A DNA stretch of 32,000 nucleotides, taken from NCBI RefSeq assembly GCF_001997385.1, contig NZ_CP019633.1, positions 2,220,001-2,252,000 of the forward strand, given 5' to 3'. A program made the translations under genes and the position numbers. The DNA comes from Sedimentisphaera cyanobacteriorum (GTDB lineage Bacteria; Planctomycetota; Phycisphaerae; Sedimentisphaerales; Sedimentisphaeraceae). Below, piece by piece: positions 2,023 to 27,693 of this stretch. Every line of letters starts with the position of its first letter. Position 1 is the first letter of the stretch. The notes under the pieces are model-generated. The model was not told the origin of the DNA and did no database searches. It saw only the letters and a program-made list of their open reading frames with translations.

Positions 2023-2048
2023 CCAAGCTCTGTTTGATACAATATAAC

Positions 2049-2064: not shown

Positions 2065-2065
2065 G

Positions 2066-2093: not shown

Positions 2094-2099
2094 CCTGTA

Positions 2100-5539: not shown

Positions 5540-5599
5540 CAGAGGTTCAGTTAAATCCCTTATTTGGCCGGCAGTATGCTGCTTTCGTGAAATTTAAAA

Positions 5600-8699: not shown

Positions 8700-8756
8700 A
8701 AACCGGTTCAGATTACAGTGTCTTATTGTATGTTCAGTAAAGAAAGCACAATTTAG

Positions 8757-10646
8757 ATGAAAATATTAACCCTGGCAGCAGTTCTTTTAACGTCCGCAGT
8801 TTTTGCGACGGTTTTAAGAAACGCAGACTTCGAAAATTCTCTTGTCTGGCAGGGGGGTAAGTGGTCTGTTTCGGAAGGGTCAATCTTTCAAACCTCGCCA
8901 AACGGCCTTGCCAGGGCTCTCTGGCCTGTTAATCTCCCGGAAAACTATCAGATTACAGCTGAATTAAAAAAACTTGAAGGTTCCGACGGCCCTATGATTA
9001 TATTCAGGGCAGAAGGATTTGATAAATTTTATGCCCTGAACCCGGCTCCTAATAAATCTAACGGGATTTTTCAGTTTATAGACGGCAAGAAAATCCACAA
9101 CTTAACCAAAAACTTTAACAGGGTATTTTCAAAACAGCAGTGGTACAGGGTGAAAGTTGTGTGCCGGGATAATGAATTTCAGTCTTATTTAAACGGCAGT
9201 AAATTCAGCTCTGTTACTATTGAAAGTCCTATAATTTCTAATAACTCTGTGGGTATTGGGAGCTTTGATTCGTCCATAGAGATGAGAAATTTCACAGTTA
9301 AAGACCTTGAAGGCAATGTGCTTTTCTATCCTTCCCTTGAGAAAGAAATGAGCAATATTACCGGCTGGAACCTTGGAGGAGAAGGAAACGCTGAAGTTTT
9401 AAGGGAGGGAGCAAACGATTCAAATTGTCTTTTCATTAACAGCGACTCGAAGCTTCGTCTCTCTCAGACAGGTTTAAGGCTTGATAAAGCTAACGGCTAT
9501 CGTCTCAAAATGGACTACAAAGCGGTTGATATGGTTCGTCTTCCAAAACAAATATATCTTTTTGTATATTATAGTTGGGAGGGTCGGGAAGGCCCTAAAT
9601 ATGCCTACAGTCTCGACGGGATGCACTGGAAAAAGCTAAATCCCGAACAGCCTCTTTTCGATCCGGATGTAGGCGAGGAAAAACGATTTATGGACCCCAG
9701 CATCATAAAAGGCCCTGAAGGGCGTTTCCATATGGTATGGACTATAGGCTGGGATCAGCACAGCATCGGGATTGCCCATTCAGACAACCTCTATGAGTGG
9801 TCTTTGCAGAAGGCGCTTCCTGTTATGGCTCATAAGAAAGGCATCCAAAACTGCTGGAGTCCGGAAATATTTTACGATAAAAAAAGCGGGCAATATTACA
9901 TATATTGGGCGTCGAGCATAAAAGGCGGCTTCCCCAAAACCGCCAACACCACTCCGGACGGGAGAAACCATAGAATTTTCTACACAACCACAAAGGATTT
10001 TATTACATACTCACCAGCAAAGCTTATGTTTGATAACAATACAAACGTTATTACGCCCAAGATCGAGCAGACCCGAAGCGGAAAATACGTGATGTTTGTT
10101 AAAAATGAATCGCGCTGGCCTGAAGAGAAAAATATAAGAATGATGGTTTCTGATGATATTGAAAACTGGGATTCACCTCTAAGCGAGCCGATCCACGATA
10201 CCAGTTTTTGGGCGGAGGGGCCTTCTATTTTGAAAATGGGCGGCTGCTGGTATGTGTTTTACGAGAAATATATGGCCTCTGAGTTTGGTGCAGCTAAAAG
10301 CTGCGATCTTGAAAAGTGGCAGGATATTTCAGATGAAATCTTTTGCCCTGATAGCATTCGGCAGGGTTCATTTGTGCGGGTTTCCAAAAAAACCTTCAAA
10401 AATCTCGCCGGCAAATTTCATTTCGGCCTTTCTTCTCCTGATAATGTTGCTGTAAGCGTAAAAGATGGGCAGATCGAGCTTTTTAATGCCGTGTTAGACA
10501 ATTTCAAGCCTGAATGGAATACCTTCGATGATACCTTTTATTCGGTTTACAGTACACAAGATGCGGTTTTGAGCATCAATATTGAGGGGGAATCGCAGAT
10601 CTGGTTAGATAATATAAGCTTGGAGAAGCTGGAGCAGAAACAATGA
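8757..10646 (+). CDS. Secreted multidomain glycoside hydrolase-like protein: DUF1080-type lectin fold plus GH43-like five-bladed beta-propeller
   Basis: Signal peptide MKILTLAAVLLTSAVFA. DUF1080-like N-domain (WYRVKVVCRDNEFQSYLNG). Propeller motifs FMDPSII, NCWSPEIFYD, RIFYTTTKDF and WAEGPSILK (RDP / WAPE / EGP-type). C-terminal IWLDNISLEK is a jelly-roll end. Confidence 0.7.
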   Translation: MKILTLAAVLLTSAVFATVLRNADFENSLVWQGGKWSVSEGSIFQTSPNGLARALWPVNLPENYQITAELKKLEGSDGPMIIFRAEGFDKFYALNPAPNKSNGIFQFIDGKKIHNLTKNFNRVFSKQQWYRVKVVCRDNEFQSYLNGSKFSSVTIESPIISNNSVGIGSFDSSIEMRNFTVKDLEGNVLFYPSLEKEMSNITGWNLGGEGNAEVLREGANDSNCLFINSDSKLRLSQTGLRLDKANGYRLKMDYKAVDMVRLPKQIYLFVYYSWEGREGPKYAYSLDGMHWKKLNPEQPLFDPDVGEEKRFMDPSIIKGPEGRFHMVWTIGWDQHSIGIAHSDNLYEWSLQKALPVMAHKKGIQNCWSPEIFYDKKSGQYYIYWASSIKGGFPKTANTTPDGRNHRIFYTTTKDFITYSPAKLMFDNNTNVITPKIEQTRSGKYVMFVKNESRWPEEKNIRMMVSDDIENWDSPLSEPIHDTSFWAEGPSILKMGGCWYVFYEKYMASEFGAAKSCDLEKWQDISDEIFCPDSIRQGSFVRVSKKTFKNLAGKFHFGLSSPDNVAVSVKDGQIELFNAVLDNFKPEWNTFDDTFYSVYSTQDAVLSINIEGESQIWLDNISLEKLEQKQ

Positions 10647-11152
10647 AACAAGCACAGAATATCATTCTTATCGGTATGCCGGGGGCGGGAAAAAGCACAA
10701 TCGGAGTCCTCTTGGCCAAGTACCTCTCCAAGTGGTTTATAGATACAGATGTGCTGATTCAGTCTCTCGAGAGGAAAACACTGCGAGAGATAATTGCTTC
10801 TGAGGGGCTTGAAAGATTTATTGAAATCGAAAAGCAGCACCTCAAGAAAATCCAGGCCTATAATGCGGTAATCGCTACCGGCGGAAGCGCCGTTTACGAT
10901 GATGAGGCGATGAGCTGCCTCAGGGAGAGCGGGATTACGGTGTTTCTCGATGTTGCCGTGGAGGAGATAGAACGAAGGATCAAATGCACCGCTGAAAGGG
11001 GGGTTGTGATCTCTTCAGGGCAGTCTATCCGCCAGCTATACGAAGAGCGCGTTCCGCTGTATCGCAAATTTGCAGATGTTGAAGTGCAGTGCGGCAGCCG
11101 CACCCAAGAAGAAAATGCCCAGTGTATTGCCGAGATGTTTAAGCGGAATTAG
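10643..11152 (+). CDS. aroK: Shikimate kinase
   Basis: IILIGMPGAGKSTIGVLLAK (P-loop), FIDTDVLI, ATGGSAVY. ATGA overlap with the upstream stop. Confidence 0.9.
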   Translation: MKQAQNIILIGMPGAGKSTIGVLLAKYLSKWFIDTDVLIQSLERKTLREIIASEGLERFIEIEKQHLKKIQAYNAVIATGGSAVYDDEAMSCLRESGITVFLDVAVEEIERRIKCTAERGVVISSGQSIRQLYEERVPLYRKFADVEVQCGSRTQEENAQCIAEMFKRN

Positions 11153-12111
11153 TAGTAGTCTTCCTGCCAGTGCTGAAAAATCTCTGCAAAATCAAGCATA
11201 TTAACAGCACCGTCGGAGTTTACATCCGATTCAGCAGCGTTTCCAGTTGGCGGGTTTTTCAGCCAGTTTTTCGAGAGCTCCTTTATATCCGCCTGATTTA
11301 TCAGGCAGTCTTCGTCGATATCTGCCGGATTAGAACCGCAGTTTGATAAATCTGATAGCGTCTGCACTGCCCAAGAGTAAAAGTCTCGCGTTCTGTGGGC
11401 ATAAATTTCCTGAGCTTCGGGCAGTTTTGTGGCGGGGTTGAGGTAATATGCCCTGCTGCCGTATTCTGTGTCAACCGAATAAAAAACTCCAAAGAGCAGC
11501 CATTGCTTACCGTTATTGTAGAATACCCCGCCCCCGGAATCGTATTCTGCTATACTGCACTCGTAATCTGTTTCTCCCGGGCCGTCAAAATCCAGCTTCA
11601 GAAGATCTATCTGGCCGTTTTCCTGCTTCCAGTCCAGCCAGCCAAGCTCGTTTGTTCCCCAGCGGATTTGGGAATTGTCTCCAGTCCATTCATATCCGTA
11701 GTCAATCTGGTTGTTCGGATCGTCATCTCTGTATTTGCCGTATCCGCCAAGCACTACATCTGAGCCACGTTCGTTTATTGAGGAATTTATGCCGGCATAC
11801 TCGTCAAAATTTGCATACCTCAGCCTTACAAGCCTTATATCAGCCTCTGAATCAGGGTGTTCAATTATTCGAACGGCTTTATAATCCTGCCCATCGATTT
11901 CAACAGTGCTTCCGTATCCGCCTCCCTGATGCCGCGTGGTAATGATGCACCCGGACGAAACAGCAACGCAAGAGGCGTTTGAATTCCATCTGCCCAGAAC
12001 TGAAGAGGGGGGTCTGCCGCTCCAGCTTGCAGGCGGTTCATAATCGGGATGAAGTATTATACCTGAAGCAAAAGAGCACAGCAGAATAACTGCAATAGTA
12101 CAATTTCTCAT
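11149..12111 (-). CDS. Secreted trypsin-like serine peptidase with C-terminal dockerin-like module
   Basis: Signal peptide MRNCTIAVILLCSFASG. His motif CIITTRH, Asp motif EADIRLVRL, Ser motif EYDSGGGVF. C-terminal DIDEDCLINQAD and DVNSDGAVNMLD are EF-hand-like dockerin repeats. Confidence 0.7.
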   Translation of the reverse strand: MRNCTIAVILLCSFASGIILHPDYEPPASWSGRPPSSVLGRWNSNASCVAVSSGCIITTRHQGGGYGSTVEIDGQDYKAVRIIEHPDSEADIRLVRLRYANFDEYAGINSSINERGSDVVLGGYGKYRDDDPNNQIDYGYEWTGDNSQIRWGTNELGWLDWKQENGQIDLLKLDFDGPGETDYECSIAEYDSGGGVFYNNGKQWLLFGVFYSVDTEYGSRAYYLNPATKLPEAQEIYAHRTRDFYSWAVQTLSDLSNCGSNPADIDEDCLINQADIKELSKNWLKNPPTGNAAESDVNSDGAVNMLDFAEIFQHWQEDYY

Positions 12112-12318
12112 AATATAATCATTTCTGCTTAGTGATTGTTGTATCCGGCAAAATCAATTATAACTTGTAAACCGCTTTTGCCTAAGAAAAACTTTATACG
12201 CTGCAAGCAGCATCAGTAATTTCACAGATTCCCCCGGATCACGCAGTTTTTGTGTTTTTTTACAGCGAAGCCCGCGAAACACACGAAGGGGATATGGTTT
12301 TAATTGATTTTATTATTT

Positions 12319-12343
12319 ACAGATGGCACGGATGGCACAGATA
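12319..12343. repeat. Short tandem 9-mer array (GATGGCACR x2.5; on the minus strand ATCYGTGCC)
   Basis: The sequence ACAGATGGCACGGATGGCACAGATA read directly. A related CACAGAT occurs at 12223-12229. Confidence 0.6.
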
Positions 12344-12388
12344 ATTTTTATGAATGTAAAGCCCTTCTATTAAATAACTAACAGAAAT

Positions 12389-12465
12389 CTTCGTGCCCTT
12401 CGAGCCCTTCACGGTTTAAACCAATCCCACGAGGTTTAAAAAAATTACCCGCGGTTTAAAATTAA
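12389..12465. repeat. Tandem 9-mers CTTCGTGCC/CTTCGAGCC/CTTCACGG running into three GGTTTAAA boxes phased exactly 20 bp apart
   Basis: GGTTTAAA at 12413-12420, 12433-12440 and 12453-12460, each preceded by CCC-N-CG-like bases. The 9-mers lie at 12389-12414 and are in inverted orientation relative to the 12319-12343 array. Confidence 0.6.
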
Positions 12466-12591
12466 TCTCATCGCCAAACACTAAAAAGTCCAGAAAAGTT
12501 GAGCAATACCAGCGTCAAGAAATCCAAAAAATGCAAAGAGCAGCTCAATTCATAATATTGCCCTGCCTGCAGCCTTTGCTCCAATAAATCT

Positions 12592-12619
12592 TTGCCTGAC
12601 AGAGATTTGTAAATATAAT
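12592..12619 (+). promoter_or_regulatory. Putative sigma70-type promoter TTGCCT-N16-TATAAT, -10 ending 8 nt before ATG 12628
   Basis: TTGCCT at 12592-12597 and TATAAT at 12614-12619. There is no Shine-Dalgarno, which implies a near-leaderless mRNA. Confidence 0.4.
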
Positions 12620-12627
12620 CCCGCTTT

Positions 12628-14463
12628 ATGGAAAAGAACAGCAAAACAAACCGGTGCGGGATACAGCAGGATCTTCTGCCTTTCGTTGAAAAGCCCGGAA
12701 GATATATCGGCGGCGAGGTTAATTCTTGCAGAAAAGATTTCGATGCCTGCGATGTCCGCTTTGGTATATGCTTTCCCGATACATACGAAATCGGCATGAG
12801 CAATACTGGCGTTTCGCTAATCTACGAGCTTTTAAACCGGCTTGAATGGGCGGGCTGCGAGCGATTCTTCACCCCTTGGACGGATGCGATTGAAATAATG
12901 CGGGAAAAGGGGATTGAGCTTTTCTCGCTGGAATCCAAAACTCCCGCAAAAGAATTCGATATGCTCGGCTTTTCAATAACTACAGAGCTGTGCCACACTA
13001 ATATTCTCGCTATGCTTGATCTTGCAGGCCTCGAGCTTCGAAGCAAAAACAGAGGCGAGAACGACCCGATAATCCTCGGGGGCGGGCAGATTGCCAACTG
13101 CTGCGAACCTATGGCGGATTTCTTTGATATTTTTATACTCGGAGACTGCGAAGACGCCCTTCCCGCCCAGCTTGAGCTTTTGAGGGAAAGCAAATCTCAG
13201 GGCATAAGCAAAGAGGATTTTCTCCTTGAAGCGGGCAGGCGTTTCAGCTGGGCGTATGTGCCGAGGCTCTATGAGCCTTCTGAAAAAGGCGGGATAACTC
13301 CTGCAAAGAGCGGTTTGCCGGCTAAGCTTGAGAATGCCGCAGTAAAGGATTTCGAGAACGCCTGCATACCCGAGAAGCCGATTGTCCCGTTTGTGGAGGC
13401 GGTGCATGAGAGAGTGAGTGTGGAGATTATGCGGGGCTGCCCGAATGCGTGCAGGTTTTGCCAGGCGAATTTCACAAAGCGCCCCGTAAGGCTAAGAAGC
13501 GTGGAGCGGGTTTTCAATGCCGCCGTAAAAAGCTATGAGGCAACAGGCTTTGACAGCGTATCCCTGCTAAGCCTTTCAACAGCAGACTACCCTTGGCTGG
13601 AAAAGCTGTCAGAAAGGCTCAATGAATATTTCGCTCCTCGAAAAGTGGGAATTTCTCTGCCGAGTCTGCGAGTGGAAAAGCAGCTTGAGCTGATTCCCGC
13701 TCTCGGAGCAGCAGTGCGCAAGAGCGGGCTTACTATCGCAGTTGAGGCAGCCAGCGAGAGGCTGCGAAGGCTTATAAACAAGCCGATTACAAATGAAAAG
13801 CTCTTTGCAGGTCTGAAAGAGGCATACAAAGCAGGCTATCAGCGCGTGAAGCTGTACTTTATGGCAGGCTTCCCTGGCGAAACAGAGCAGGACCTCCGGG
13901 AGATTGCAGACCTTGCAGGCGAGGTGAGCAGGCTGGCAAAACAGATTACAGGCAAAACAGCTTCCGTTAATGCTGCGGTAAGCTGGCTTGTCCCCAAGCC
14001 TCATACGCCTTTCCAATGGCAGGGGCAGAAAAGCGGAGAATATTTCGAAAACGCAAAGCAGATTATCCTCAGCAGGAAAAAAGAGCTCGGCCTCGGACGA
14101 AAAGTATCATTCAAATTCCACGATATAAGCCAGAGCATCCTCGAAACTGTCCTCGCAAGGGGTACAAGAGAGCTCGGCGGGGTTATAGAAGATGTTTACC
14201 GTGCAGGCGGGATGTTCGATCTATGGCATGAACATTTCCGCTTTGATATATGGCAGGAAAAGTTCGCACAGAGCGGCATTGATTATCAAAGGATTGCCCA
14301 GAGCGATTATCAGCTTGAAGATGTTCTGCCCTGGGAGCATCTGGGAGGCCCAGACAGAGAGCTGCTCCTGCGGCATTGGGAAAAGGCCTTGGATATTATC
14401 AGCAGCGAAGGGCAGCCACAAAGCGGGGAGCGTTCTGAAGAATGCTTAGAAAGGAAGGTTTAA
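12628..14463 (+). CDS. B12-binding-domain radical SAM protein, TIGR03960-like (function unknown)
   Basis: VEKPGRYIGGEVNS, FPDTYEIGMSNTGVSLIY, GGGQIANCCEP, and the radical SAM cluster motif MRGCPNACRFCQA. Confidence 0.85.
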   Translation: MEKNSKTNRCGIQQDLLPFVEKPGRYIGGEVNSCRKDFDACDVRFGICFPDTYEIGMSNTGVSLIYELLNRLEWAGCERFFTPWTDAIEIMREKGIELFSLESKTPAKEFDMLGFSITTELCHTNILAMLDLAGLELRSKNRGENDPIILGGGQIANCCEPMADFFDIFILGDCEDALPAQLELLRESKSQGISKEDFLLEAGRRFSWAYVPRLYEPSEKGGITPAKSGLPAKLENAAVKDFENACIPEKPIVPFVEAVHERVSVEIMRGCPNACRFCQANFTKRPVRLRSVERVFNAAVKSYEATGFDSVSLLSLSTADYPWLEKLSERLNEYFAPRKVGISLPSLRVEKQLELIPALGAAVRKSGLTIAVEAASERLRRLINKPITNEKLFAGLKEAYKAGYQRVKLYFMAGFPGETEQDLREIADLAGEVSRLAKQITGKTASVNAAVSWLVPKPHTPFQWQGQKSGEYFENAKQIILSRKKELGLGRKVSFKFHDISQSILETVLARGTRELGGVIEDVYRAGGMFDLWHEHFRFDIWQEKFAQSGIDYQRIAQSDYQLEDVLPWEHLGGPDRELLLRHWEKALDIISSEGQPQSGERSEECLERKV

Positions 14464-15465
14464 GTGTGCGGTGATTATGCAGTAGAGCTCAGCGTTATCT
14501 CTCCTATGTACAACGAAGAGGCTGTGATTGGAGAAAGCGTTCGAGGGTTAGCAGAAGCGATTGAAAAGCTCGAAGCAAGCTGGGAGCTGATTCTCGTAAA
14601 CGACGGAAGCACAGACAATACCGCTGCAATAATAGAGAAGGCTGCAGGCGAGGATGAGCGGATTCGTGTGGTTAGCTATAAACGCAACAGAGGCAGAGGG
14701 TATGCCCTTCGCTCAGGATTCAATGCCAGTAGAGGCAAATACGTTATCACAACCGAATCAGACCTCACTTGGGGGAAAGATATAATCGAAAAGCTCTACA
14801 GTGAGCTTGTACGCAGCGAGGCGGATGTAGTGATAGCATCGCCCTACACAAAGGGCGGAAGGCTGGAAAACGTTCCTGCTAAGCGGGCTTTCCTTAGCAG
14901 AATGGGCAATGAAATCCTCAAACGCACCGTCCCCGCACCGATCTCAATGCTCAGTGGGATGACCCGAGGCTACAAAGGCGATATTATCCGCAGCCTGCCT
15001 CTCGAGCAGGACAGAAAAGAGATTCATTTGGAGATAGTTTCCAAATGCGTTATGCTCGGGCTCGCGTTCAGCGAGGTGCCCGCAGTTCTGAAATGGCAGA
15101 AACCCCAAACGAACGCCCCGAAGCGAAAATCGAAATTCAAGGCGGGAAGGCTGATCAAATCCCACCTGCTCTTCAGTATGTTCGAGGCGCCGGTAATGCT
15201 TTTCGGCACTCTCGGATTTGCGCTTTTGATTATCGGAGCGGTGTTCGGATTTCATCTCGGGATTGAATATTTCATAAGGGGCGAGGTAATCGGAGACAGA
15301 ATCATATTCATCCTCGTTACGATTTTCCTGCTCAGCAGCGGGTTCAGTATGTTTCTTTTCTGCTTCTTTGCCTACCAGATCAAAACCCTTCAGACCGAGC
15401 TTTTCAAAACCCAGCTTCTGCTCCACAAAAAATGCGGCAGGGAAAATGAGGGGATATCTAATTAA
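14464..15465 (+). CDS. Family 2 glycosyltransferase (polyprenol-phosphate sugar transferase-like) with C-terminal TM helices
   Basis: LSVISPMYNEE, LILVNDGSTDNT, YKRNRGRGYALRSG, ESDLTW, and two C-terminal hydrophobic helices. GTG start directly after the upstream TAA, with GGAAGG upstream. Confidence 0.85.
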   Translation: MCGDYAVELSVISPMYNEEAVIGESVRGLAEAIEKLEASWELILVNDGSTDNTAAIIEKAAGEDERIRVVSYKRNRGRGYALRSGFNASRGKYVITTESDLTWGKDIIEKLYSELVRSEADVVIASPYTKGGRLENVPAKRAFLSRMGNEILKRTVPAPISMLSGMTRGYKGDIIRSLPLEQDRKEIHLEIVSKCVMLGLAFSEVPAVLKWQKPQTNAPKRKSKFKAGRLIKSHLLFSMFEAPVMLFGTLGFALLIIGAVFGFHLGIEYFIRGEVIGDRIIFILVTIFLLSSGFSMFLFCFFAYQIKTLQTELFKTQLLLHKKCGRENEGISN

Positions 15466-15476
15466 TTGATTGGAAA
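15464..15476. repeat. Left copy of 13-bp imperfect direct repeat AATTGATTGGAAA
   Basis: 12/13 identical to 16610-16622. It spans the GT2 stop and the first codons of the AlbA_2 paralogue. Confidence 0.6.
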
Positions 15477-16632
15477 TATGCTTATGGATACCGAAGAACT
15501 AAAAAAAATTATAAGGCGCGGCGAAGACACGAAACATCAGTTCAAAGAAAATATCAACAACGAAACATCTTTAGCGGCTGAGATTGCGGCCTTTGCTAAC
15601 ACTTTAGGCGGCTTACTTCTAATTGGCGTGTCAGATACCGGTGAGATTAAAGGCCTCTCCAGCAGTGATGTAAACAGAATAGGAAGAATGGTTTCAAACG
15701 CCTGTTCTCAAGGGCTGCGGCCGGCTGTAAACCCCATAACAGAAAATATAGAATGTGAGAACGGCTTTGTTATTGCTGCCCAAATCGAAGAAGGCATTTC
15801 CAAACCTTATACTGACAAGGATGGAGTGATTTGGGTTAAAAGCGGGCCAGACAAGAGAAAAGCTACATCCAGAGAGGAAATTCAAAGGATGTTTCAGAGC
15901 TCAAGCCTAATCCACGGTGATGAGGTTTTGATAAAATCGATGGATTCAAAGCATATTGACAAAGAGGCCTTCGCAGAATTTATGGAAAAGGAGTTTGATA
16001 TAGCCCCTGAAGCAGAAAATCTCGAACGTTCACTCGAAAACCTAAACCTTATGAGGGACGGGTCTTTGAATCTTGCAGGAGCTCTTTTGTTCGGTAAAAG
16101 GCCGCATATTCAGCTTCCGGCTTTTATAGTTAAGTGCGTCTGCTACCCGGGCAAAGAGATATCTGCAAACAACTACATAGAAAGCAAAGATATTAAAGGA
16201 ACTATCCCGCAGATGTTTGAGGGAGTAACAGCATTTTTGCTTAGAAATATTCGATGGATCCAGAACGGCAAAGATATAAATTCAATTGGAGACCCCGAGA
16301 TCCCGCGAATTGCCTTAGTGGAGCTGGTGGTTAATGCCCTGATACACAGAGACTACTTTATCTCCGCCCCTGTAAGAATTTTTATCTTCTCAGACAGAGT
16401 GGAGATTATAAGTCCCGGGCATTTGCCGAATAATCTTACAGTGGAAAATATTAAAAACGGAAATTCCAACATAAGAAACCCGATCCTTGCGTCCTTCGCA
16501 GCAAAACTCCTTCCATATAGAGGTTTAGGCAGCGGGATAAGGCGTTCGCTGAAAGCATATCCCGGTATTCAGTTCGAAGACGACAGAGACGGCAATTTAT
16601 TCAAATGCCAATTGATTAGAAAACAAATTTGA
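15466..16632 (+). CDS. AlbA_2 (Schlafen-like) / HATPase_c_4-type ATP-binding protein, short form without wHTH tail
   Basis: GEDTKHQFKENI, FANTLGGLLLIGVSDTGEIKGL, SKPYTDKDG, VELVVNALIHRDY, VEIISPGHL and YRGLGSGIRRS. The start is uncertain: TTG 15466, or ATG 15478 or 15484. Confidence 0.8.
   Translation: MIGNMLMDTEELKKIIRRGEDTKHQFKENINNETSLAAEIAAFANTLGGLLLIGVSDTGEIKGLSSSDVNRIGRMVSNACSQGLRPAVNPITENIECENGFVIAAQIEEGISKPYTDKDGVIWVKSGPDKRKATSREEIQRMFQSSSLIHGDEVLIKSMDSKHIDKEAFAEFMEKEFDIAPEAENLERSLENLNLMRDGSLNLAGALLFGKRPHIQLPAFIVKCVCYPGKEISANNYIESKDIKGTIPQMFEGVTAFLLRNIRWIQNGKDINSIGDPEIPRIALVELVVNALIHRDYFISAPVRIFIFSDRVEIISPGHLPNNLTVENIKNGNSNIRNPILASFAAKLLPYRGLGSGIRRSLKAYPGIQFEDDRDGNLFKCQLIRKQI
16610..16622. 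repeat. Right copy of 13-bp imperfect direct repeat AATTGATTAGAAA
   Basis: 12/13 identical to 15464-15476, 1146 bp (a multiple of 3) downstream, within the last codons of the AlbA_2 paralogue. Confidence 0.6.
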
Positions 16633-16654
16633 ACGTCTTACAGCGGGCAGGTCA

Positions 16655-17590
16655 ATGAACAGAAAAACGAAGATAACGCTGCAGGCTGCTGTATCAGCGG
16701 CGCTGATTGGGTTTATACTCTCCCGCATAAACCTGCAGGAGCTTGGGTCTGCTATAAGCGGAGCAAGTGCGGGGCTGCTTTTTATCTGCTTTGTACTGCT
16801 GATTCCAAACTATCTTCTAAGGGCGTACCGCTGGAAGGTCCTGTTTCAAAACAGCTCGCATTCAATCACCCTCAAGGATTCAACCCTGCTTCTTTTTACA
16901 GGACTGGGGCTGAATCTCTTTATGCCCTCAGGCAGCGGGGATATCGCAAAGGCCTATTTCGGCTACAGGTGGTCTGGAGTGAAGGAGAGGATGGTTTCGA
17001 TAAGTTTTCTGGATAAGCTCATCGCTGTAAGCTCGATATCCATACCCGGGCTTGCTGCCTCGCTTATCACATCCCGCCCGATATTTGCCGGCCTTTCTCT
17101 TCTTGCCGGCATTCCGCTGATTTTTGTTTTTTTCTTTGCCGGCTGGATCTCTCGAAACGAAAAAGCGAAGGAATTCATAAAAGACCGTGCCGCCGGCAGA
17201 TTCGATTTTGAGCTTTTCTTCCACCAGCTCAATTCCTGCAGGGGCAAGCTCGTTTCTGCGGTTTTTCTCTCAATACTCGGCTGGACAGTAACATATTTTA
17301 TTTTTTTTATATGTTTTAGGATGATAGATTGTCAAATTTCGTTATATTACGTGTTTTCGGTTTCCCCTATACTCACGCTTGCAAGGCTTTTTCCGTTTGC
17401 TTTAAACGGGCTCGGCAGCGATGAGGCCGTGATTGGGTTCTTGTTTCTTTCAAGCGGCTTGGAGGCTGAAAACGTGTTAGCAGCGGCTCTTCTTTACAGA
17501 GTCGTTCTTTTGATTATTCCCGGGCTGGCCGGGCTTGTAATCTTGAATATCAAAAAGAAAATTATAACTTCCATCGATAAAACAGTTTAG
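16655..17590 (+). CDS. Flippase-like / lysylphosphatidylglycerol-synthase TM-region family (UPF0104) membrane protein
   Basis: 311 aa and polytopic. It has the characteristic LRAYRWKVLF motif after the first TM helices. Confidence 0.8.
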   Translation: MNRKTKITLQAAVSAALIGFILSRINLQELGSAISGASAGLLFICFVLLIPNYLLRAYRWKVLFQNSSHSITLKDSTLLLFTGLGLNLFMPSGSGDIAKAYFGYRWSGVKERMVSISFLDKLIAVSSISIPGLAASLITSRPIFAGLSLLAGIPLIFVFFFAGWISRNEKAKEFIKDRAAGRFDFELFFHQLNSCRGKLVSAVFLSILGWTVTYFIFFICFRMIDCQISLYYVFSVSPILTLARLFPFALNGLGSDEAVIGFLFLSSGLEAENVLAAALLYRVVLLIIPGLAGLVILNIKKKIITSIDKTV

Positions 17591-17598
17591 AGTGATAT

Positions 17599-18111
17599 AT
17601 GGGATTGTTAAAGAAAGCAAAGATGGGGATATACCGCTTTATACGGATATTCCGGTGCAATGATGTGATGGGCATAATGAAGCCTGATGCCGAAACGGTG
17701 CTTGATATTGGCTGTCAGGAGATGTATTTCTACAACCAGCTCAAGGAGCATTACGATGTCACCCTTGCAGACTGCGAGCCGAGAAACGGCCACATCGTTA
17801 AAGAGAATGTCGAAAACTTAAGCTTTGATGATTCGAGCTTCGATATAGTAATCTGTCTTCAGGTGCTCGAACACGTTCCAGACCCTGTAAAGGCAATGAA
17901 AGAGCTCAAGCGGGTGGCAAGAAAACAGCTGATTATAACAGTTCCTAACGAGCCGCAGTTTACATTCGCACGTATGGGCACTTGGGAGAAAGAACATCTA
18001 TGGGCAATACAGCCCAAGGTTTTTGAACATCATCTCGGCAAGCCCGATATGTTCAAAACGATAATCTTCAACAGATACTGCCTGTTTGCTTGGGATATAG
18101 GCGAGGAGTAG
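17599..18111 (+). CDS. Small class I methyltransferase-fold protein (Methyltransf_11-like) with degenerate SAM motif I
   Basis: VLDIGCQEMYF (expected LDxGCGxG), DVTLADCEP, and FDIVICLQVLEHVPDPVKAMKELKRVARKQLIITVPN. Confidence 0.7.
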   Translation: MGLLKKAKMGIYRFIRIFRCNDVMGIMKPDAETVLDIGCQEMYFYNQLKEHYDVTLADCEPRNGHIVKENVENLSFDDSSFDIVICLQVLEHVPDPVKAMKELKRVARKQLIITVPNEPQFTFARMGTWEKEHLWAIQPKVFEHHLGKPDMFKTIIFNRYCLFAWDIGEE

Positions 18112-18115
18112 AGCG

Positions 18116-19210
18116 ATGAAGATTCTCTGCGTTTGCGGAGCAAGACCCAACTTTATGAAAATTGCACCGATAGTCGATGCCTTCTCAAAGGCGGGTATCG
18201 ACCGGGCAATCGTGCATACAGGCCAGCATTACAGCCCGGAGATGAGCAGAAATTTCTTCGACCAGCTCGAAATCCCAAAGCCCGATGTGAATCTGGAGGC
18301 AGGCCCCGGTTCGCACGCATTTCAGACCGCAGAGATAATCAGACGCTTCGAGCCGGTGGTGATAGACCAAAAGCCTGATGCGGTTCTCGTGGTGGGCGAT
18401 GTAAACAGCACCATCGCCTGCGGGCTCACGGCAGTGAAGCTTGGGATAAAGCTGATACATGTGGAAGCGGGGCTGAGAAGCTTCGATAAGGCGATGCCCG
18501 AGGAGATAAACCGAATCCTCACCGATTCAATAAGCGATATGCTGTTTGTCTCTGAGCCCTCAGGCATTGAAAATCTGCGAAGAGAAGGCAGGCCTGAAGA
18601 GGCGGTGTTTCTCGCTGGAAATGTGATGATTGATACGCTCTTCAAACGATTGAGCAAAGCTGGAAACTCAGATATTCTAAAAAGGCTCGGACTCAAAGAG
18701 AAAGAGTTCCTCACACTCACCCTCCATCGCCCTGAAAACGTTGACAGCAGAGAAAGCCTTCTGAAGGCTGCTGAACTGATAGAGCGTGCCTCTGAGCAGC
18801 TCAAGATTGTTTTGCCTTTGCATCCGCGCACGAAAAGAGCGTTCAAACAAGCCGGCTTGGAAGAGAGGATCACAGGGATTGAAAATCTTGTTATCTGTCC
18901 GCCACTGAATTATATCGATTTTTTGAGGCTCCTCAGCACTAATGCCTGCGCTCTAACCGATTCCGGCGGCGTGCAGGAAGAAACAACCGCTCTGGGAATC
19001 CCCTGCATCACCCTGCGTAAAAATACAGAAAGGCCTATCACGATAACAGAGGGTACAAACACCTTAACAGGCCTGAATCCCGAAAAGGCCGCCTCGCAGA
19101 TCAAAAAGCTTTCTGAGAATAATTTCAAGGCAGAAGGCAGATGCCCGAAACTCTGGGACGGTAAAGCAGCTGAAAGGATTGCAGCAGAGGTTATTAAAAC
19201 CCTCGCATAA
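18116..19210 (+). CDS. wecB: UDP-N-acetylglucosamine 2-epimerase (non-hydrolysing)
   Basis: MKILCVCGARPNFMKIAPI, HTGQHYSPEMS, VVGDVNSTIACGL, HVEAGLRSFD, MPEEINR, TDSGGVQEE. Confidence 0.92.
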   Translation: MKILCVCGARPNFMKIAPIVDAFSKAGIDRAIVHTGQHYSPEMSRNFFDQLEIPKPDVNLEAGPGSHAFQTAEIIRRFEPVVIDQKPDAVLVVGDVNSTIACGLTAVKLGIKLIHVEAGLRSFDKAMPEEINRILTDSISDMLFVSEPSGIENLRREGRPEEAVFLAGNVMIDTLFKRLSKAGNSDILKRLGLKEKEFLTLTLHRPENVDSRESLLKAAELIERASEQLKIVLPLHPRTKRAFKQAGLEERITGIENLVICPPLNYIDFLRLLSTNACALTDSGGVQEETTALGIPCITLRKNTERPITITEGTNTLTGLNPEKAASQIKKLSENNFKAEGRCPKLWDGKAAERIAAEVIKTLA

Positions 19211-19234
19211 TTGCCGCTGAAATCATATTTACAT

Positions 19235-19263
19235 TTGACTAAACTGCCTATTTCTCTGATAAT
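19235..19263 (+). promoter_or_regulatory. Putative sigma70-type promoter TTGACT-N17-GATAAT upstream of aroF
   Basis: TTGACT at 19235-19240 and GATAAT at 19258-19263. AAGAGGA Shine-Dalgarno before ATG 19308. Confidence 0.5.
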
Positions 19264-19307
19264 TCCCGCAAACTTCATATCAGCTGAAATTAATAAGAGG
19301 AAATTGT

Positions 19308-20327
19308 ATGATCGTTGTAATGAAGCCGCAGGCATCGAATGAGGATGTTAAGCACGTAGTAAAGCTTGTAAACGACTTCGGCCTGAAAGAAAATATTATA
19401 TACGGAACTGACAGGACTGTTATCGCCTGCATCGGCGATAAAAGGCACGTTGAAAAGAGTGCTATAGAGAACGCCGGAAACGTGGAAAAGGTGGTTCCGA
19501 TTCTCGCTCCGTACAAGCTCGCCTCAAGGGAGGTGGTGAAGGAGAAAACGGCGATCAGGATCGGACCTGAAAAATTCCCGCTCGGGGGCAGTAAAGTGGG
19601 TGTTATAGCAGGGCCTTGTGCTGTGGAAGACCTCGATCAGGTGCTGAAAACCGCTGAAAAGGTGAAAGAAGCCGGCTGCATCGGGCTTAGAGGCGGAGCA
19701 TTCAAACCCAGAACAAGCCCTTACAGCTTCCAAGGGATGAAATATGAAGGACTCGAGATCCTCGCCAAGGCAAGAGAAAAAACAGGGCTTGCGATTGTTA
19801 CTGAAGTGGTGAGCCTTGATAATGTAGATGCAGTAGCCCAGACGGCAGATGTTTTGCAGGTTGGGGCGAGAAATATGCAGCATTACCCCCTGCTCGAAGC
19901 TTTGGGCAAGGTGAATAAGCCTGTTCTGCTGAAAAGAGGCCTATGCTCAAGGCTGGATGAATTCCTGCTTGCCGCTGAATATATCATAAATGCAGGCAAT
20001 AAGCAGGTTATTATGTGCGAACGCGGGATACGCACGTATGAGGAGTACGTTCGCAATACCCTGCCTCTTGCATCCATACCGGCCCTGAATGAAAGAACGC
20101 ATCTGCCGATAGTGGTTGATCCCTCCCACGGAACGGGACATTCGTATATGGTTGCGCCAATGTGCAGAGCCGCAGTTGCAGCGGGGGCGGACGGACTGCT
20201 GGTGGAATGCCATTTAGACCCCGAACACGCCCTCAGCGACGGGGCGCAGTCTATAACGCCAAATGCTCTGAAGGAAATGGTGCAGTCTGTAACAAAAATT
20301 GCGGAAACGCTCGGCAGGTCTGTTTAG
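19308..20327 (+). CDS. aroF: 3-deoxy-7-phosphoheptulonate (DAHP) synthase, type I-beta with N-terminal ferredoxin-like regulatory domain
   Basis: N-terminal MIVVMKPQASNEDVKHVVKLV (regulatory domain), IAGPCAVE, LRGGAFKPRTSPYSFQG, QVGARNMQ, KRG, DPSHGTG. Confidence 0.9.
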   Translation: MIVVMKPQASNEDVKHVVKLVNDFGLKENIIYGTDRTVIACIGDKRHVEKSAIENAGNVEKVVPILAPYKLASREVVKEKTAIRIGPEKFPLGGSKVGVIAGPCAVEDLDQVLKTAEKVKEAGCIGLRGGAFKPRTSPYSFQGMKYEGLEILAKAREKTGLAIVTEVVSLDNVDAVAQTADVLQVGARNMQHYPLLEALGKVNKPVLLKRGLCSRLDEFLLAAEYIINAGNKQVIMCERGIRTYEEYVRNTLPLASIPALNERTHLPIVVDPSHGTGHSYMVAPMCRAAVAAGADGLLVECHLDPEHALSDGAQSITPNALKEMVQSVTKIAETLGRSV

Positions 20328-20349
20328 AATAAATTGAGCCTTTAATAAA

Positions 20350-20450
20350 AGGTGTCGGGTTTACCACGCACAGCCCGGAAGCGCTTATGGCTGCTCGGTT
20401 CCCCGCCTGACCAGGTTCACGTCCCGAAGCTTGCATGGGACCCGACACAA
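20350..20450 (-). ncRNA. ffs: Signal recognition particle RNA (small bacterial 4.5S type)
   Basis: The minus-strand RNA GUGUCGGGUCCCAUGCAAGCUUCGGGACGUGAACCUGGUCAGGCGGGGAACCGAGCAGCCAUAAGCGCUUCCGGGCUGUGCGUGGUAAACCCGACACC carries the helix-8 core CAGG-CGG-GGAA-CCG-AGCAGCC. E. coli 4.5S has CAGG-UCC-GGAA-GGA-AGCAGCC, so the tetraloop-closing stem has changed by compensatory substitutions. A 9-bp terminal helix (20352-20360 with 20440-20448) is followed by UUUUAUU. A consensus-like promoter lies upstream. The exact ends are approximate. Confidence 0.85.
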
Positions 20451-20461
20451 ATGAACGACTC

Positions 20462-20490
20462 ATTATACACTAAATCTGTTTAAATTTCAA
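20462..20490 (-). promoter_or_regulatory. Putative sigma70-type promoter for ffs (TTGAAA-N17-TATAAT on minus strand)
   Basis: TTGAAA at 20490-20485 and TATAAT at 20467-20462, about 12 nt upstream of the SRP RNA terminal helix. Confidence 0.6.
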
Positions 20491-20670
20491 CCGCCATCAA
20501 AAATAAATTACAAATCCCCGCATACTTTGCCTCTACCCTGTTCAGTAAATCTCTGTATGACAGAGTTTTATAAACGCAATTCTGCTCAAATTTCTGCTTG
20601 CTACAGCGGTCTGAATGCTTGCTTAACGGCCTCGCCAATATAATAGACTCCTCCAAAACAATAATTAAGG

Positions 20671-20698
20671 TTGACAAAGTTGAACGTTCGAATAAATT
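20671..20698 (+). promoter_or_regulatory. Putative promoter TTGACA-N16-TAAATT with GAACGTTC palindrome in the spacer (candidate TetR operator)
   Basis: TTGACA at 20671-20676, palindrome GAACGTTC at 20682-20689, TAAATT at 20693-20698. GAGG Shine-Dalgarno before ATG 20732. Confidence 0.45.
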
Positions 20699-20731
20699 TG
20701 TCCGGACGACCAAACTAATTCGAGGTAAAAA

Positions 20732-21373
20732 ATGAGATACTCTACAAGCAAATTAACAGTACAAAATCTTATCAATTCCGCAGGCGAACTTGCGGCAAGG
20801 GTAGGCTTCCCGAATGTAACCACAAGGGGCATTGCAAGGCTTTCGGGAGAGAACATTGGAACGATACACTACCACTTCGGAAGCAAGGACAAGCTGCTTG
20901 AGGCGGTTGTGCATGAGGTGATCGAAAAGAAAAGACACCTCCTTCGAAATGTACTCAAAGAGGGAGGCGAGCTGGAGACAAAGGATTCTCAGGCCAAGAT
21001 GATACGCAAGCTTGTAAGAAGAAACATAGACAATATGTTTCGAAGCGAGAATCCCGTATGGCATTCAAGAGCGGTATTTCAGGTACTCCAAACCGAATGG
21101 CGTTTGAAGGATATCGTCCAGAGGGAAATGATAGACCCCGAGCTGACTGCTCTTAAGGCATTTTTCAAGAAGGTAAAGCCCTCTCTTACCGACGAGAAGG
21201 CCTTTCAGCATGCCCTGCTTATGGGAATACCTGTTTATTTCCACGCTGATTACAGCAAATCAATCAAGGACAAGCTTGGTAAAGACGAGTATTCAGAAGA
21301 ATATTTGAACTATCTTGAAGATGTTATTACATACCAGACCCAGTGCGCAATGGGTCTTCCTTCCGATAAATAA
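20732..21373 (+). CDS. TetR/AcrR-family transcriptional regulator
   Basis: N-terminal HTH FPNVTTRGIARLSGENIGTIHYHFGSKDKLLEAVV. It sits first in an efflux operon. Confidence 0.9.
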   Translation: MRYSTSKLTVQNLINSAGELAARVGFPNVTTRGIARLSGENIGTIHYHFGSKDKLLEAVVHEVIEKKRHLLRNVLKEGGELETKDSQAKMIRKLVRRNIDNMFRSENPVWHSRAVFQVLQTEWRLKDIVQREMIDPELTALKAFFKKVKPSLTDEKAFQHALLMGIPVYFHADYSKSIKDKLGKDEYSEEYLNYLEDVITYQTQCAMGLPSDK

Positions 21374-21394
21374 AAAACCTAACTTGGGGAAAAA

Positions 21395-22495
21395 ATGAAG
21401 GCAAAGTATATATTAGTAACAATTCTGGTATCTGCGGCAGTGCTTTTTGCTCAGGAAATCCGTAATGTGGAGCTTGCAGAAGTTCAGAAGCTGGAATTGG
21501 ACACGGGGAACAGTTATCCGGGCACAGTAAAACCCTGCGAGAACACGAGGCTCTCTTTCAGGGTTTCCGGGCCTCTTGTGAAGGTGGAGGCTGCCCCGGG
21601 AGACAGGTTAAAAAAGGGCGAGCTGCTTATGCAGATAGACCCCAGAGACTACAAAGACAGCATTAACGAATTAGAAGCAAATTTGGAACGGGCAAAGGCA
21701 GAAAAAAACAAGGCAAAGCTCGATTACGACAGGGCGAAAAGACTGTTTTCCCAAAACGTGATACCAAAGGCAGATTACGATGCCGCCAAAAGCGCTTATG
21801 ATATTGCAGAGGCCTCTATCCGGAGTACGCAGGCTCAGCTCCAAATCGCAAGGCATAAGCTTGAGGATGCCTCGCTTACCGCCCCATACGACGGGGTAAT
21901 CACAGAGCAGTTCGCAGAGAATCACGAGATGATTCAGAAGGGGCAGGTGGTTATGGCTATGCAGGATATCTCGAAGCTTGAGGTGGATATCAACGTTCCG
22001 GAGAATGAGATTGTAAACTATGAGCTCGAAAGGGGCAAAGAGGCGAGCGTTAAATTTCCCGCTTTCGGCGAAAAGCTCTTCAGCGCATCGCTTTCAGAAT
22101 GGAACACGTCTGCTTCGAACAGGACAAGAACGTATCAGCTCACCTTCATACTCGATCCAGAGGGCAGCCAGCTTCTTCCTGGAATGACAGCTGAGCTGAG
22201 CCTGAGAACAAACTCGCAGACAGGCAAAACTTTAGTCCCTGCCGGCGCGGTTGTAAGCCTCGGGGATAACAGAAGCGCAGTTTGGATTTACAGCGAAGAA
22301 AACGGAAAAGCCTCCAAGAAAGAGGTTCAGTCCGGAAGGCTCTACGGATCATCTAAAGTGGTAATAGAAAGCGGCCTTAAAGGCGGCGAGATTATCGTAA
22401 CAAAAGGAGCTGATTTTATTACAGAAGACACAGAGCTTCGCAATACCAAATCCGCAGATAACACTGACAGTTCAGCCCGCTCGGAGGTAAGATGA
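21395..22495 (+). CDS. RND efflux periplasmic adaptor (membrane fusion protein)
   Basis: Signal or anchor sequence, a lipoyl-like GDRLKKGELLMQIDPRDY, and a coiled-coil hairpin (LERAKAEKNKAKLDYDRAKRL...AQLQIARHKLEDASLTAPYDGVI). Confidence 0.9.
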   Translation: MKAKYILVTILVSAAVLFAQEIRNVELAEVQKLELDTGNSYPGTVKPCENTRLSFRVSGPLVKVEAAPGDRLKKGELLMQIDPRDYKDSINELEANLERAKAEKNKAKLDYDRAKRLFSQNVIPKADYDAAKSAYDIAEASIRSTQAQLQIARHKLEDASLTAPYDGVITEQFAENHEMIQKGQVVMAMQDISKLEVDINVPENEIVNYELERGKEASVKFPAFGEKLFSASLSEWNTSASNRTRTYQLTFILDPEGSQLLPGMTAELSLRTNSQTGKTLVPAGAVVSLGDNRSAVWIYSEENGKASKKEVQSGRLYGSSKVVIESGLKGGEIIVTKGADFITEDTELRNTKSADNTDSSARSEVR

Positions 22496-25530: not shown

Positions 25531-25545
25531 TTGACAGGTAATATT

Positions 25546-27669: not shown

Positions 27670-27693
27670 CTTTTCCTTTGATGAGCTGTAAGT

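What the first reader, a model, noticed from the sequence alone, without database searches (positions are those of the whole stretch)
15464..16622. Second AlbA_2 paralogue looks like a gene cassette inserted into a glycan operon, bounded by 13-bp direct repeats
The 388-aa AlbA_2/HATPase_c_4 gene sits between a GT2 glycosyltransferase and a UPF0104 flippase-like membrane protein. Those two genes are commonly immediate neighbours in such clusters, here followed by a methyltransferase and wecB. Packing is extreme: 0 bp to the GT2 stop and 22 bp to the next start. The cassette is AT-richer than both flanks by my spot counts: about 40% GC at 15481-15540 and 16381-16440, against 53% at 15181-15240 and 55% at 16681-16740. 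AATTGATTGGAAA (15464-15476) and AATTGATTAGAAA (16610-16622) match at 12 of 13 positions. They bracket the gene almost exactly, 1146 bp apart and in the same codon phase. Recombination between them would restore a clean GT2-flippase junction. This suggests acquisition by a microhomology or site-specific mechanism with no integrase or transposase nearby.
Basis: partly seen in the sequence, partly recalled or inferred. Interest (0 to 1): 0.6.

Follow-up and report, generated by a model that had tools for sequence, protein, structure and literature searches.

The report
Orphan Schlafen-ATPase gene inside glycan operon
A single foreign defence-type gene (a Schlafen-like domain joined to an ATPase) has been inserted into a conserved cell-envelope sugar operon of a Sedimentisphaera bacterium and later swapped between two sister species, but the 13-base repeats around it are most likely coincidence.

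Summary
The two 13-mers (15464-15476 and 16610-16622) match at 12 of 13 positions and bracket an AlbA_2/HATPase_c_4 gene between a GT2 gene and a flippase-like gene.

The insertion reading is supported. In 12 of 12 related loci outside the two closest species, GT2 and the flippase-like gene are directly adjacent.

The repeat-based mechanism is not supported:
- The 13-mer is unique in the genome and absent from all empty sites.
- The two positions match at only 6 of 13 in the sister species.
- The 3' copy is conserved coding sequence of the gene family.
- A 12-of-13 bracket occurs by chance in about 0.6% of genes.

New results:
- The gene is a TrlG-type Schlafen-ATPase ("Schlatpase"), 56% identical to plasmid TrlG proteins, but no TrlF partner is found in the genome.
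- Its sequence, probably with about 100 bp of each flank, is far younger between the two species than the surrounding DNA. Four-fold sites are 90% identical against 46-62%. This points to exchange by homologous recombination in the flanking operon genes.
- The sister species, Sedimentisphaera salicampi, has lost the Schlafen domain by a 456-bp in-frame deletion between two ATGGAT hexamers.

This is an ordinary kind of gene flux, nicely documented. The scan has noted TrlF-TrlG pairs before on other DNA.

The parts
12592..12619 (+). Promoter-like site (TTGCCT-16-TATAAT) ahead of the radical SAM gene. It is the presumed promoter of the whole operon, including the inserted gene.
   Evidence: Consensus scan only. 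No promoter-like or terminator-like site lies at the GT2/insert/flippase junctions. Co-transcription is inferred from the packing, not shown.
12628..14463 (+). TIGR03960-type B12-binding radical SAM gene, first gene of the operon.
   Evidence: Pfam and NCBIfam. It is syntenic in G001 and G002.
14464..15465 (+). GT2 glycosyltransferase of the polyprenyl-phosphate type with C-terminal membrane helices. It forms the left flank of the insertion.
   Evidence: Pfam Glycos_transf_2, E 1e-31. In 12 of 12 other loci it is followed directly by the flippase-like gene.
15370..16757 (.). Tract of recent common ancestry with Sedimentisphaera salicampi: the last ~95 bp of GT2, the whole inserted gene and the first ~100 bp of the flippase-like gene.
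   Evidence: A maximum-likelihood two-change-point fit on synonymous codons gives 90% identical inside against 64% outside, 2dlnL = 67.9. Four-fold sites are 0.90 identical against 0.46-0.62. The only 300-bp windows at or above 92% identity in the whole 32-kb window start at 15901-16301, spanning 15901-16600. The ends of the tract are approximate.
15464..15476 (+). 5' copy of the 13-mer, AATTGATTGGAAA. It spans the last two bases of the GT2 stop codon and the 18-nt spacer before the start codon.
   Evidence: It reads AATTGACTGGAGA in G001.
15484..16632 (+). Inserted gene: a 382-aa orphan TrlG-type Schlatpase (SLFN_AlbA_2 domain plus GHKL-type HATPase_c_4 ATPase).
   Evidence: Pfam scores of 82.7 and 55.7 bits. 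It is 56% identical over its full length (E 8e-157) to a plasmid protein encoded immediately after a TrlF family ATPase. It is 58-63% identical to homologues in other phyla. The start codon is set.
15484..15489 (+). First ATGGAT hexamer, the left end of the 456-bp in-frame deletion seen in the sister species.
   Evidence: Alignment of G000 with G001.
15940..15945 (+). Second ATGGAT hexamer, the right end of the same deletion. In G001 the ORF restarts here as MDSKDIDKEAF.
   Evidence: The product on record for S. salicampi has 230 aa.
16610..16622 (+). 3' copy of the 13-mer, AATTGATTAGAAA, inside the coding sequence (codons Q-L-I-R-K).
   Evidence: It aligns with the family's conserved C-terminal strand. 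It reads CTCTTATTAGAAA in G001.
16655..17590 (+). Flippase-like membrane protein (LPG_synthase_TM / UPF0104), the right flank of the insertion.
   Evidence: Pfam E 7e-39 and TIGR00374.
17599..18111 (+). Class I methyltransferase, a conserved third member of the GT2-flippase-methyltransferase module.
   Evidence: Pfam. It follows the flippase-like gene in G001 and in 6 of the 12 other loci.
18116..19210 (+). UDP-N-acetylglucosamine 2-epimerase (WecB type), the last gene of the operon.
   Evidence: Pfam Epimerase_2, E 1e-98.

Best explanation
The gene at 15484-16632 is a horizontally acquired, stand-alone Schlafen-ATPase ("Schlatpase") of the TrlG type that lacks its usual TrlF partner.

Position and expression:
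- It sits as a promoterless single-gene insertion between the GT2 gene and the flippase-like gene of a conserved envelope-glycan operon: radical SAM, GT2, flippase-like, methyltransferase, WecB.
- It is presumably expressed by read-through from the operon promoter (inferred).

History:
- The ancestral state is direct adjacency of GT2 and the flippase-like gene (shown).
- Only G000 and its sister species S. salicampi (G001) carry the gene, at the same junctions (shown).
- The gene, and probably about 100 bp of each flanking gene, shares a much more recent ancestor between the two species than the rest of the region does. After the first insertion, the cassette therefore passed between the two lineages, or into both from a close third lineage, by homologous recombination in the flanking operon genes (inferred from synonymous-site divergence).
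- In S. salicampi a 456-bp in-frame deletion between two ATGGAT hexamers then removed the whole Schlafen domain and left a 230-aa ATPase-only ORF (shown).

The repeat: the 13-bp direct repeat is real but most likely fortuitous, and part of the match is probably a change specific to G000.

Likely function (inferred from relatives only): a defence or growth-restriction protein. [quoted passage not shown] The nuclease motif here reads E(x)4QxK instead of E(x)4(D/E)xK, so catalytic activity is uncertain.
For: Insertion:
- GT2 is followed directly by the flippase-like gene in G002 (same genus, 4-bp ATGA overlap), in G007, in four further GTDB genomes and in six metagenome contigs. Gaps from the GT2 stop to the first aligned flippase residue are 5-110 nt.
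- A close homologue (E <= 1e-40) was found in only 4 of 201 genomes of the order.
- The best database hits are 58-63% identical, and the hits that carry an organism name come from other phyla.
- GC3 is about 10 points below the operon neighbours.

Identity of the gene:
- Both Pfam domains score above their cut-offs.
- It is 56% identical, E 8e-157, to a protein encoded immediately after a 'TrlF family AAA-like ATPase' inside a type I restriction-modification operon on a plasmid.
- Its domain positions match those published for TrlG (PMC7554251).
- The name Schlatpase and the abundance of the stand-alone form come from bioRxiv 10.64898/2026.05.29.728809.
- No TrlF was found in G000, G001 or G002, and the positive control worked.

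Recent exchange:
- dS is 0.19 for the shared part of the gene, against 0.66-1.38 for six flanking genes.
- Four-fold sites are 0.90 identical, against 0.46-0.62.
- The change-point tract runs from 15370 to 16757, with 2dlnL = 67.9.
- Of 537 sliding 300-bp windows (mean identity 83.8%, sd 4.0), only those inside this gene reach 92-98.7%.

Deletion in the sister species.

Repeat not functional.
Against: - Only two genomes carry the gene and there is no closely related empty site. The original insertion junctions therefore cannot be mapped, and a short-homology event at the 13-mer cannot be strictly excluded.
- The extension of the young tract into the flanks rests on few sites: 23 of 26 identical synonymous codons on the left and 27 of 29 on the right. 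A similar local peak (23 of 26) occurs at 17255-17354, away from the insert.
- The junction segments themselves are about 75-83% identical with small indels. This fits neutral decay at the young age but is noisy.
- The structure model was of low confidence (mean pLDDT 60) and was not used.
Confidence: 0.75

Rival explanations
1. The 13-bp repeats are the footprints of the insertion. A circular or linear cassette recombined with the operon at a short shared sequence (att-like or microhomology), leaving one copy on each side. Recombination between the copies would excise it cleanly.
For: - A 12-of-13 match placed almost exactly at the two ends of the insert falls in the top 0.6% of genes; 2% of shuffles reach it in a wider test.
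- Both copies lie outside the flanking coding sequences, so a deletion between them would keep both neighbours intact (read).
- No mobility gene is needed for such an event.
Against: - The match is 6 of 13 in the sister species, whose copy shares the same junctions.
- The 3' copy is native, conserved coding sequence, and G000's Gln codon within it is unique in the family.
- The 12 empty sites show no copy. These sites are distant, so this is weak evidence.
- The 13-mer is unique in the genome.
- Five other solo insertions of the same gene family have no bracketing repeat beyond chance and no shared flank motif.
- The one deletion that did happen here used ATGGAT hexamers, not the 13-mers.
Confidence: 0.12
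2. The two species acquired the cassette independently, from a common donor pool, at the same site by a site-specific mechanism. Flank-mediated homologous exchange played no part.
For: - The gene is much younger than its surroundings.
- The junction sequences are the same in both species, as site-specific insertion would also predict.
Against: - Synonymous identity stays high about 100 bp into both flanking genes. On the right flank 27 of 29 synonymous codons are identical against a background of 0.64; by my own hand binomial estimate, not a tool result, P is about 4e-4 (counts).
- No recombinase lies nearby; the nearest tyrosine recombinase genes are about 62 and 75 kb from the window's ends.
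- No conserved att-like sequence was found.
Confidence: 0.07
3. The gene is an ancestral member of the operon that has been lost everywhere else. Its low synonymous divergence reflects constraint or a mutation cold spot, not transfer.
For: - The tight packing in the operon looks native.
- dN/dS is 0.13, which shows purifying selection.
Against: - This needs loss in 12 of 12 other loci spanning several families, each leaving a tight GT2-flippase junction.
- The closest full-length relatives are 58-63% identical and, where named, lie in other phyla. The only full-length homologue found in the same order is 51% identical.
- GC3 is about 10 points below the neighbours.
- Four-fold sites at 0.90 against about 0.5 is too large a gap for codon constraint.
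Confidence: 0.03

Closest known systems
TrlG of the temperature restriction locus (trlR-trlF-trlG) of Photorhabdus laumondii (Hapeshi et al. 2020, PMC7554251), and the TrlF-TrlG pairs nested in restriction-modification and BREX operons
   Same: - Same size and two-domain layout. Published TrlG has AlbA_2 at 14-128 and HATPase_c_4 at 298-365. Here the domains lie at 14-127 and 295-359 in 382-aa numbering.
- 56% identity over the full length to a plasmid protein encoded right after a TrlF family ATPase.
- Like TrlF-TrlG, it sits tightly packed inside another operon.
- In Photorhabdus all selected escape mutations fell in trlG and none in trlF. A solo TrlG could therefore plausibly act alone.
   Different: - No TrlF anywhere in the genome, and no small trlR-type regulator gene next to it.
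- The host operon is an envelope-glycan operon, not a defence operon.
- No TrlF 3' remnant is detectable upstream (p 0.35-0.96), unlike three of five other solo copies examined.
- The protein matched no NCBIfam model.
Stand-alone 'Schlatpase' proteins (SLFN_AlbA_2 plus GHKL ATPase supradomain) and SLFN-pAgo RzAgo (bioRxiv 10.64898/2026.05.29.728809)
   Same: - Both domains are present. A PADLOC pAgo model matches positions 13-318 through its Schlafen-ATPase part.
- The GHKL residues E286, N290, D296 and G353/G355/G357 (388-aa numbering) are invariant in the alignment.
- A Schlafen-box-like AAFAN is present.
- The paper reports that small stand-alone forms are the majority of 60,692 such proteins and that the module is exchanged between defence systems.
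   Different: - No Argonaute, NACHT or restriction-modification partner, and no C-terminal HTH.
- The nuclease motif reads E(x)4QxK, with Gln nearly invariant in this subfamily. The paper gives E(x)4(D/E)xK for active Schlafen nucleases.
Integron gene cassettes
   Same: A promoterless single ORF expressed from an upstream promoter, with very short spacers.
   Different: - There is no room for an attC site: only 22 nt separate the stop codon from the next start.
- No integron integrase. The nearest Phage_integrase-family genes lie about 62 and 75 kb from the window's ends.
- No cassette array.
Accessory or defence genes exchanged between related genomes by homologous recombination in conserved flanking genes (flank-mediated replacement at variable loci). 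This comparison rests on general knowledge and was not tested as a family.
   Same: The insert plus short stretches of both conserved flanks form a tract of much younger ancestry than the surrounding genome.
   Different: The site is not a recognised hotspot. All 12 other loci examined are empty and hold no alternative cargo.

Membership tests
Stand-alone Schlatpase (SLFN_AlbA_2 + GHKL ATPase) | SLFN_AlbA_2 (PF04326) domain above Pfam's gathering score | tested here: met
   82.7 bits against a cut-off of 25.3; residues 20-133 of the 388-aa ORF.
Stand-alone Schlatpase (SLFN_AlbA_2 + GHKL ATPase) | GHKL-type HATPase_c_4 (PF13749) domain in the same polypeptide, with the ATP-binding residues kept | tested here: met
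   55.7 bits against a cut-off of 26. E286, N290, D296 and G353/G355/G357 are invariant in 15 aligned sequences.
Catalytically active Schlafen nuclease | E(x)4(D/E)xK nuclease motif, as given for SLFN-pAgos and mammalian Schlafens | tested here: not met
   The sequence reads E-D-T-K-H-Q-F-K, that is E(x)4QxK. Gln is nearly invariant in this subfamily. Activity cannot be judged from sequence alone.
TrlG (TRL locus) | Full-length similarity to proteins encoded beside TrlF, with the same domain layout | tested here: met
   56% identity, E 8e-157, over 382 of 387 aa. The neighbour is annotated as a TrlF family AAA-like ATPase.
TrlG (TRL locus) | An adjacent, overlapping trlF gene (about 880-aa PHP/ABC-like ATPase) | tested here: not met
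   The upstream gene is GT2. TrlF was not found in G000, G001 or G002; the only hit in G000 is marginal at E 0.008. The positive control gave E = 0.
TrlG (TRL locus) | Growth-restriction or defence phenotype | not testable with these tools
   This needs expression or knockout experiments.
Integron gene cassette | An attC recombination site downstream of the ORF | tested here: not met
   Only 22 nt lie between the stop codon at 16632 and the next start at 16655.
Integron gene cassette | An integron integrase and attI nearby | tested here: not met
   No PF00589 match lies in the window. The nearest are at genome positions 2157665 and 2327534.
Transposable element with target-site duplication | A transposase, and terminal inverted repeats just inside the direct repeats | tested here: not met
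   The insert holds one ORF only. The sequences just inside the two 13-mers are not inverted repeats (read; none listed).
Site-specific (att-flanked) island or short-homology cassette | Both flanking repeat copies conserved in other carriers of the insert | tested here: not met
   In G001 the two sites read AATTGACTGGAGA and CTCTTATTAGAAA, a 6-of-13 match.
Site-specific (att-flanked) island or short-homology cassette | A single copy of the repeat at empty sites | tested here: inconclusive
   The 12 empty sites match at 6-9 of 13 positions, which is shuffle level. All of them are distant: GT2 is 56-70% identical at the protein level. No close empty site is available.
Site-specific (att-flanked) island or short-homology cassette | The same site used elsewhere in the genome | tested here: not met
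   Each 13-mer is unique in the 2.95 Mb. One-mismatch variants are at about the number expected by chance, apart from seven copies that lie inside an IS transposase gene.

The most novel reading that the evidence does not exclude
Solo TrlG-type Schlafen-ATPase genes may form a class of recombinase-free single-gene cassettes. They would enter housekeeping operons by a short-homology crossover that leaves repeats such as the 13-mers here. They would borrow the operon's promoter and then spread among related species by recombination in the conserved flanks. A second solo copy lies between MurL-like and MurD genes in L052.
Probability: 0.1. Interest if true: 0.55.

Novelty: new member of a known kind. 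Interest (0 to 1): 0.3.

Why it matters
It is a clean, datable small example of how a defence-type gene moves with no mobility genes of its own. The steps are:
1. Foreign acquisition into an essential-looking envelope operon.
2. Later transfer between sister species through the conserved flanking genes.
3. Rapid decay: the Schlafen domain is deleted in one species, and the other Schlafen paralogue in the window has been deleted twice independently.

It also shows that TrlG-type proteins often live without TrlF, which bears on whether TrlG is the effector on its own. It does not reveal a new recombination mechanism.

Tried and rejected
1. The 13-mer as a genome-wide site. It is unique. Seven one-mismatch copies (AATTGATCGGAAA) turned out to lie in the middle of an identical multi-copy IS transposase gene, not at its ends.
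2. A TrlF 3' remnant upstream of the gene, which would have made the 5' 13-mer cassette DNA. There is no significant similarity (p 0.35-0.96), although three other solo loci do keep such a remnant.
3. Bracketing repeats or shared flank motifs at five other solo insertions of the family. None exceeds chance.
4. Structure prediction from a 15-sequence alignment. Mean pLDDT was 60 and pTM 0.51, too poor for a fold search, so none was run.
5. Sequence search of solved structures. Only one weak hit, to an uncharacterised protein (3lmm, E 9e-10).
6. Public sequencing runs, to look for empty-site alleles and co-transcription.
7. Further strains. The 90%-identity cluster holds only the G000 and G001 proteins. 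The metagenome scan found only distant operons, 33-43% identical in the flippase-like protein.
8. Integron or transposon readings. Rejected; see the membership tests.
Full report
**Setting.** The window is G000:C1:2220001-2252000 of a complete 2.95-Mb genome with 46.2% GC. Relatives found with the flippase-like protein are Phycisphaerae/Sedimentisphaerales. The closest genome, G001, is Sedimentisphaera salicampi according to the record name of its protein. G000 is therefore a Sedimentisphaera; probably S. cyanobacteriorum, but that is my inference from the taxonomy and is not shown.

**Observation.**
They match at 12 of 13 positions and lie 1146 bp apart.
- Pfam confirms the gene order: radical SAM (12628-14463), GT2 (14464-15465), SLFN_AlbA_2 plus HATPase_c_4 (ORF 15466-16632), LPG_synthase_TM flippase-like (16655-17590), methyltransferase (17599-18111) and UDP-GlcNAc 2-epimerase (18116-19210).
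- The real start is ATG 15484. Homologues start METxEL, aligned with MDTEEL, and the 382-aa product is the one on record. The gene is therefore separated from the GT2 stop by 18 nt and from the next start by 22 nt.
- The gene is AT-richer than its operon neighbours: GC3 43.3% against 52.6-57.5%. Within the genome it sits only at the 13th-15th percentile.

**Is it an insertion? Yes.**
- In G002 (same genus) the GT2 and flippase-like ORFs overlap by 4 bp. In G007 they are 11 nt apart.
- Four more GTDB genomes and six metagenome contigs show the same direct adjacency.
- That makes 12 of 12 loci outside G000 and G001.
- A close homologue of the inserted gene was found in only 4 of 201 genomes sampled from the order.
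- The best hits in a 5.8-billion-protein collection are only 58-63% identical. The hits that carry an organism name are Desulfobacterota, Gammaproteobacteria, Cloacimonetes and Mariprofundales.
- There is no integrase or transposase in the window. No promoter-like or terminator-like signal lies at either junction.

**What the gene is.**
- The two domains form the 'Schlatpase' supradomain described in bioRxiv 10.64898/2026.05.29.728809 (60,692 prokaryotic proteins, mostly small stand-alone forms).
- A lead from earlier notes of this scan pointed to TrlG. I tested that lead.
- tblastn against plasmids gives 56% identity over the full length to proteins that lie immediately after a 'TrlF family AAA-like ATPase'. 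One example sits inside a type I restriction-modification operon.
- The published domain positions of TrlG match (PMC7554251).
- TrlF itself is not found in G000, G001 or G002, and the positive control worked.
- Of six close homologues whose contigs I read, one is paired with an 880-aa TrlF (L050) and five are solo. Three of the solo copies keep a recognisable TrlF 3' tail upstream. The window does not.
- The gene is thus an orphan TrlG-type Schlatpase.
- Its GHKL residues are intact, but the Schlafen motif reads E(x)4QxK rather than E(x)4(D/E)xK.

**The sister species.**
- G001 carries the gene at the same place with homologous junctions. It lacks 456 bp, exactly between two ATGGAT hexamers (15484-15489 and 15940-15945). 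This removes the Schlafen domain in frame and leaves a 230-aa ORF.
- The shared part is 94% identical in DNA, against 75-86% for six flanking genes. dS is 0.19 against 0.66-1.38, and dN/dS is 0.13.
- Four-fold sites are 0.90 identical (n = 81), against 0.46-0.62 for the flanking genes.
- A two-change-point likelihood fit places the young tract at about 15370-16757, with 2dlnL = 67.9.
- Over the alignable parts of the 32-kb window, only 300-bp windows inside this gene reach 92% identity or more. The mean is 83.8% with sd 4.0 over 537 windows.
- The cassette, and probably about 100 bp of each flank, therefore has a more recent common ancestor in the two species than the genome around it. Homologous recombination in the flanking operon genes is the simplest route.
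- The flank extension rests on few sites: 23 of 26 and 27 of 29 identical synonymous codons. I rate that step as likely rather than shown.

**The repeat.** The evidence against a mechanistic role is:
- It is unique in the genome.
- A 12-of-13 bracket arises in 0.6% of crude ORFs.
- It matches at 6 of 13 in G001.
- No copy occurs at the 12 empty sites, although these are distant.
- The 3' copy encodes the family's conserved C-terminal strand. G000's Gln codon CAA, which supplies matches, is unique among 15 family members, whereas G001's Thr is typical of the family. At least part of the match is therefore probably derived in G000.
- Five independent solo insertions of the family show no bracketing repeat beyond chance.
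- The traceable recombination endpoints lie outside the repeats.
- What remains odd is that CAATTG against ACTCTT at 16609-16614 is 5 changes in 6 nt within a tract of about 95% identity. I have no tested explanation for this.

**Limits.**
- The structure model was too poor to use.
- The original insertion mechanism stays unknown.

**Verdict.**
- The insertion is supported.
- The repeat mechanism is not supported.
- The element is a new member of a known kind.

Noticed in passing
window 5600-6955: The first AlbA_2/HATPase_c_4/Fic-like_C paralogue has been deleted independently in both congeners. G001 keeps only its last 26 codons (92% identical). G002 keeps only about the first 20 codons, fused upstream of the orthologue of the 584-aa gene. 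Both keep the 584-aa gene itself. G001 thus has no intact Schlafen domain at either of the two sites where G000 has one.
   Followed up: partly
window 12135-12573: There is a synteny break between G000 and G001. Window 1-12135 maps to G001 near 1.93 Mb, and 12573-31076 maps near 1.69 Mb. The repeat-dense intergenic region ahead of the radical SAM operon is therefore a rearrangement junction.
   Followed up: no
G000 genome positions 986927, 1198660, 1490932, 2556310, 2558984, 2595955, 2780806 (outside the window): Seven copies of an IS-like element, with a DDE transposase-like ORF, are identical over at least 778 bp. They happen to contain AATTGATCGGAAA, a one-mismatch variant of the 13-mer, in mid-gene. 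This suggests an active IS family in the genome and is unrelated to the finding.
   Followed up: partly
L031 5941-6000, L052 3941-4000, L053 3941-4000: The 60 nt upstream of three solo TrlG-type genes in other phyla are significantly similar to the 3' end of trlF in a paired locus (0 of 300 shuffles reached the observed score). These solo copies therefore seem to derive from trlF-trlG pairs by loss of trlF.
   Followed up: partly
L052 4001-5152: Another solo TrlG-type gene lies in the same orientation between a MurL-like gene and a MurD-like ligase gene in a metagenome contig. This is a second case of the family sitting inside a cell-envelope gene cluster.
   Followed up: no
window 16609-16614: CAATTG in G000 against ACTCTT in G001 is 5 differences in 6 nt, within a tract that is otherwise about 95% identical. 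The cluster coincides with the start of the 3' 13-mer. It could be a templated multi-base change, but this is unexplained.
   Followed up: no
window 15440-15465; L020 7285-7304: The GT2 C-terminal tails differ between the sister species through small indels...CGRENEGISN* against ...CSREKTGDI*. G001 also has an extra hairpin-capable stretch of 16 nt (AAGCGGCTTGATTACA) in the spacer after the inserted gene.
   Followed up: no
L049 1-11145 (plasmid NZ_AP022145.1): On this plasmid TrlF-TrlG sits with overlapping stops and starts between hsdR and hsdS of a type I restriction-modification operon that also holds an extra AAA ATPase. This shows the family's habit of nesting inside operons.
   Followed up: no
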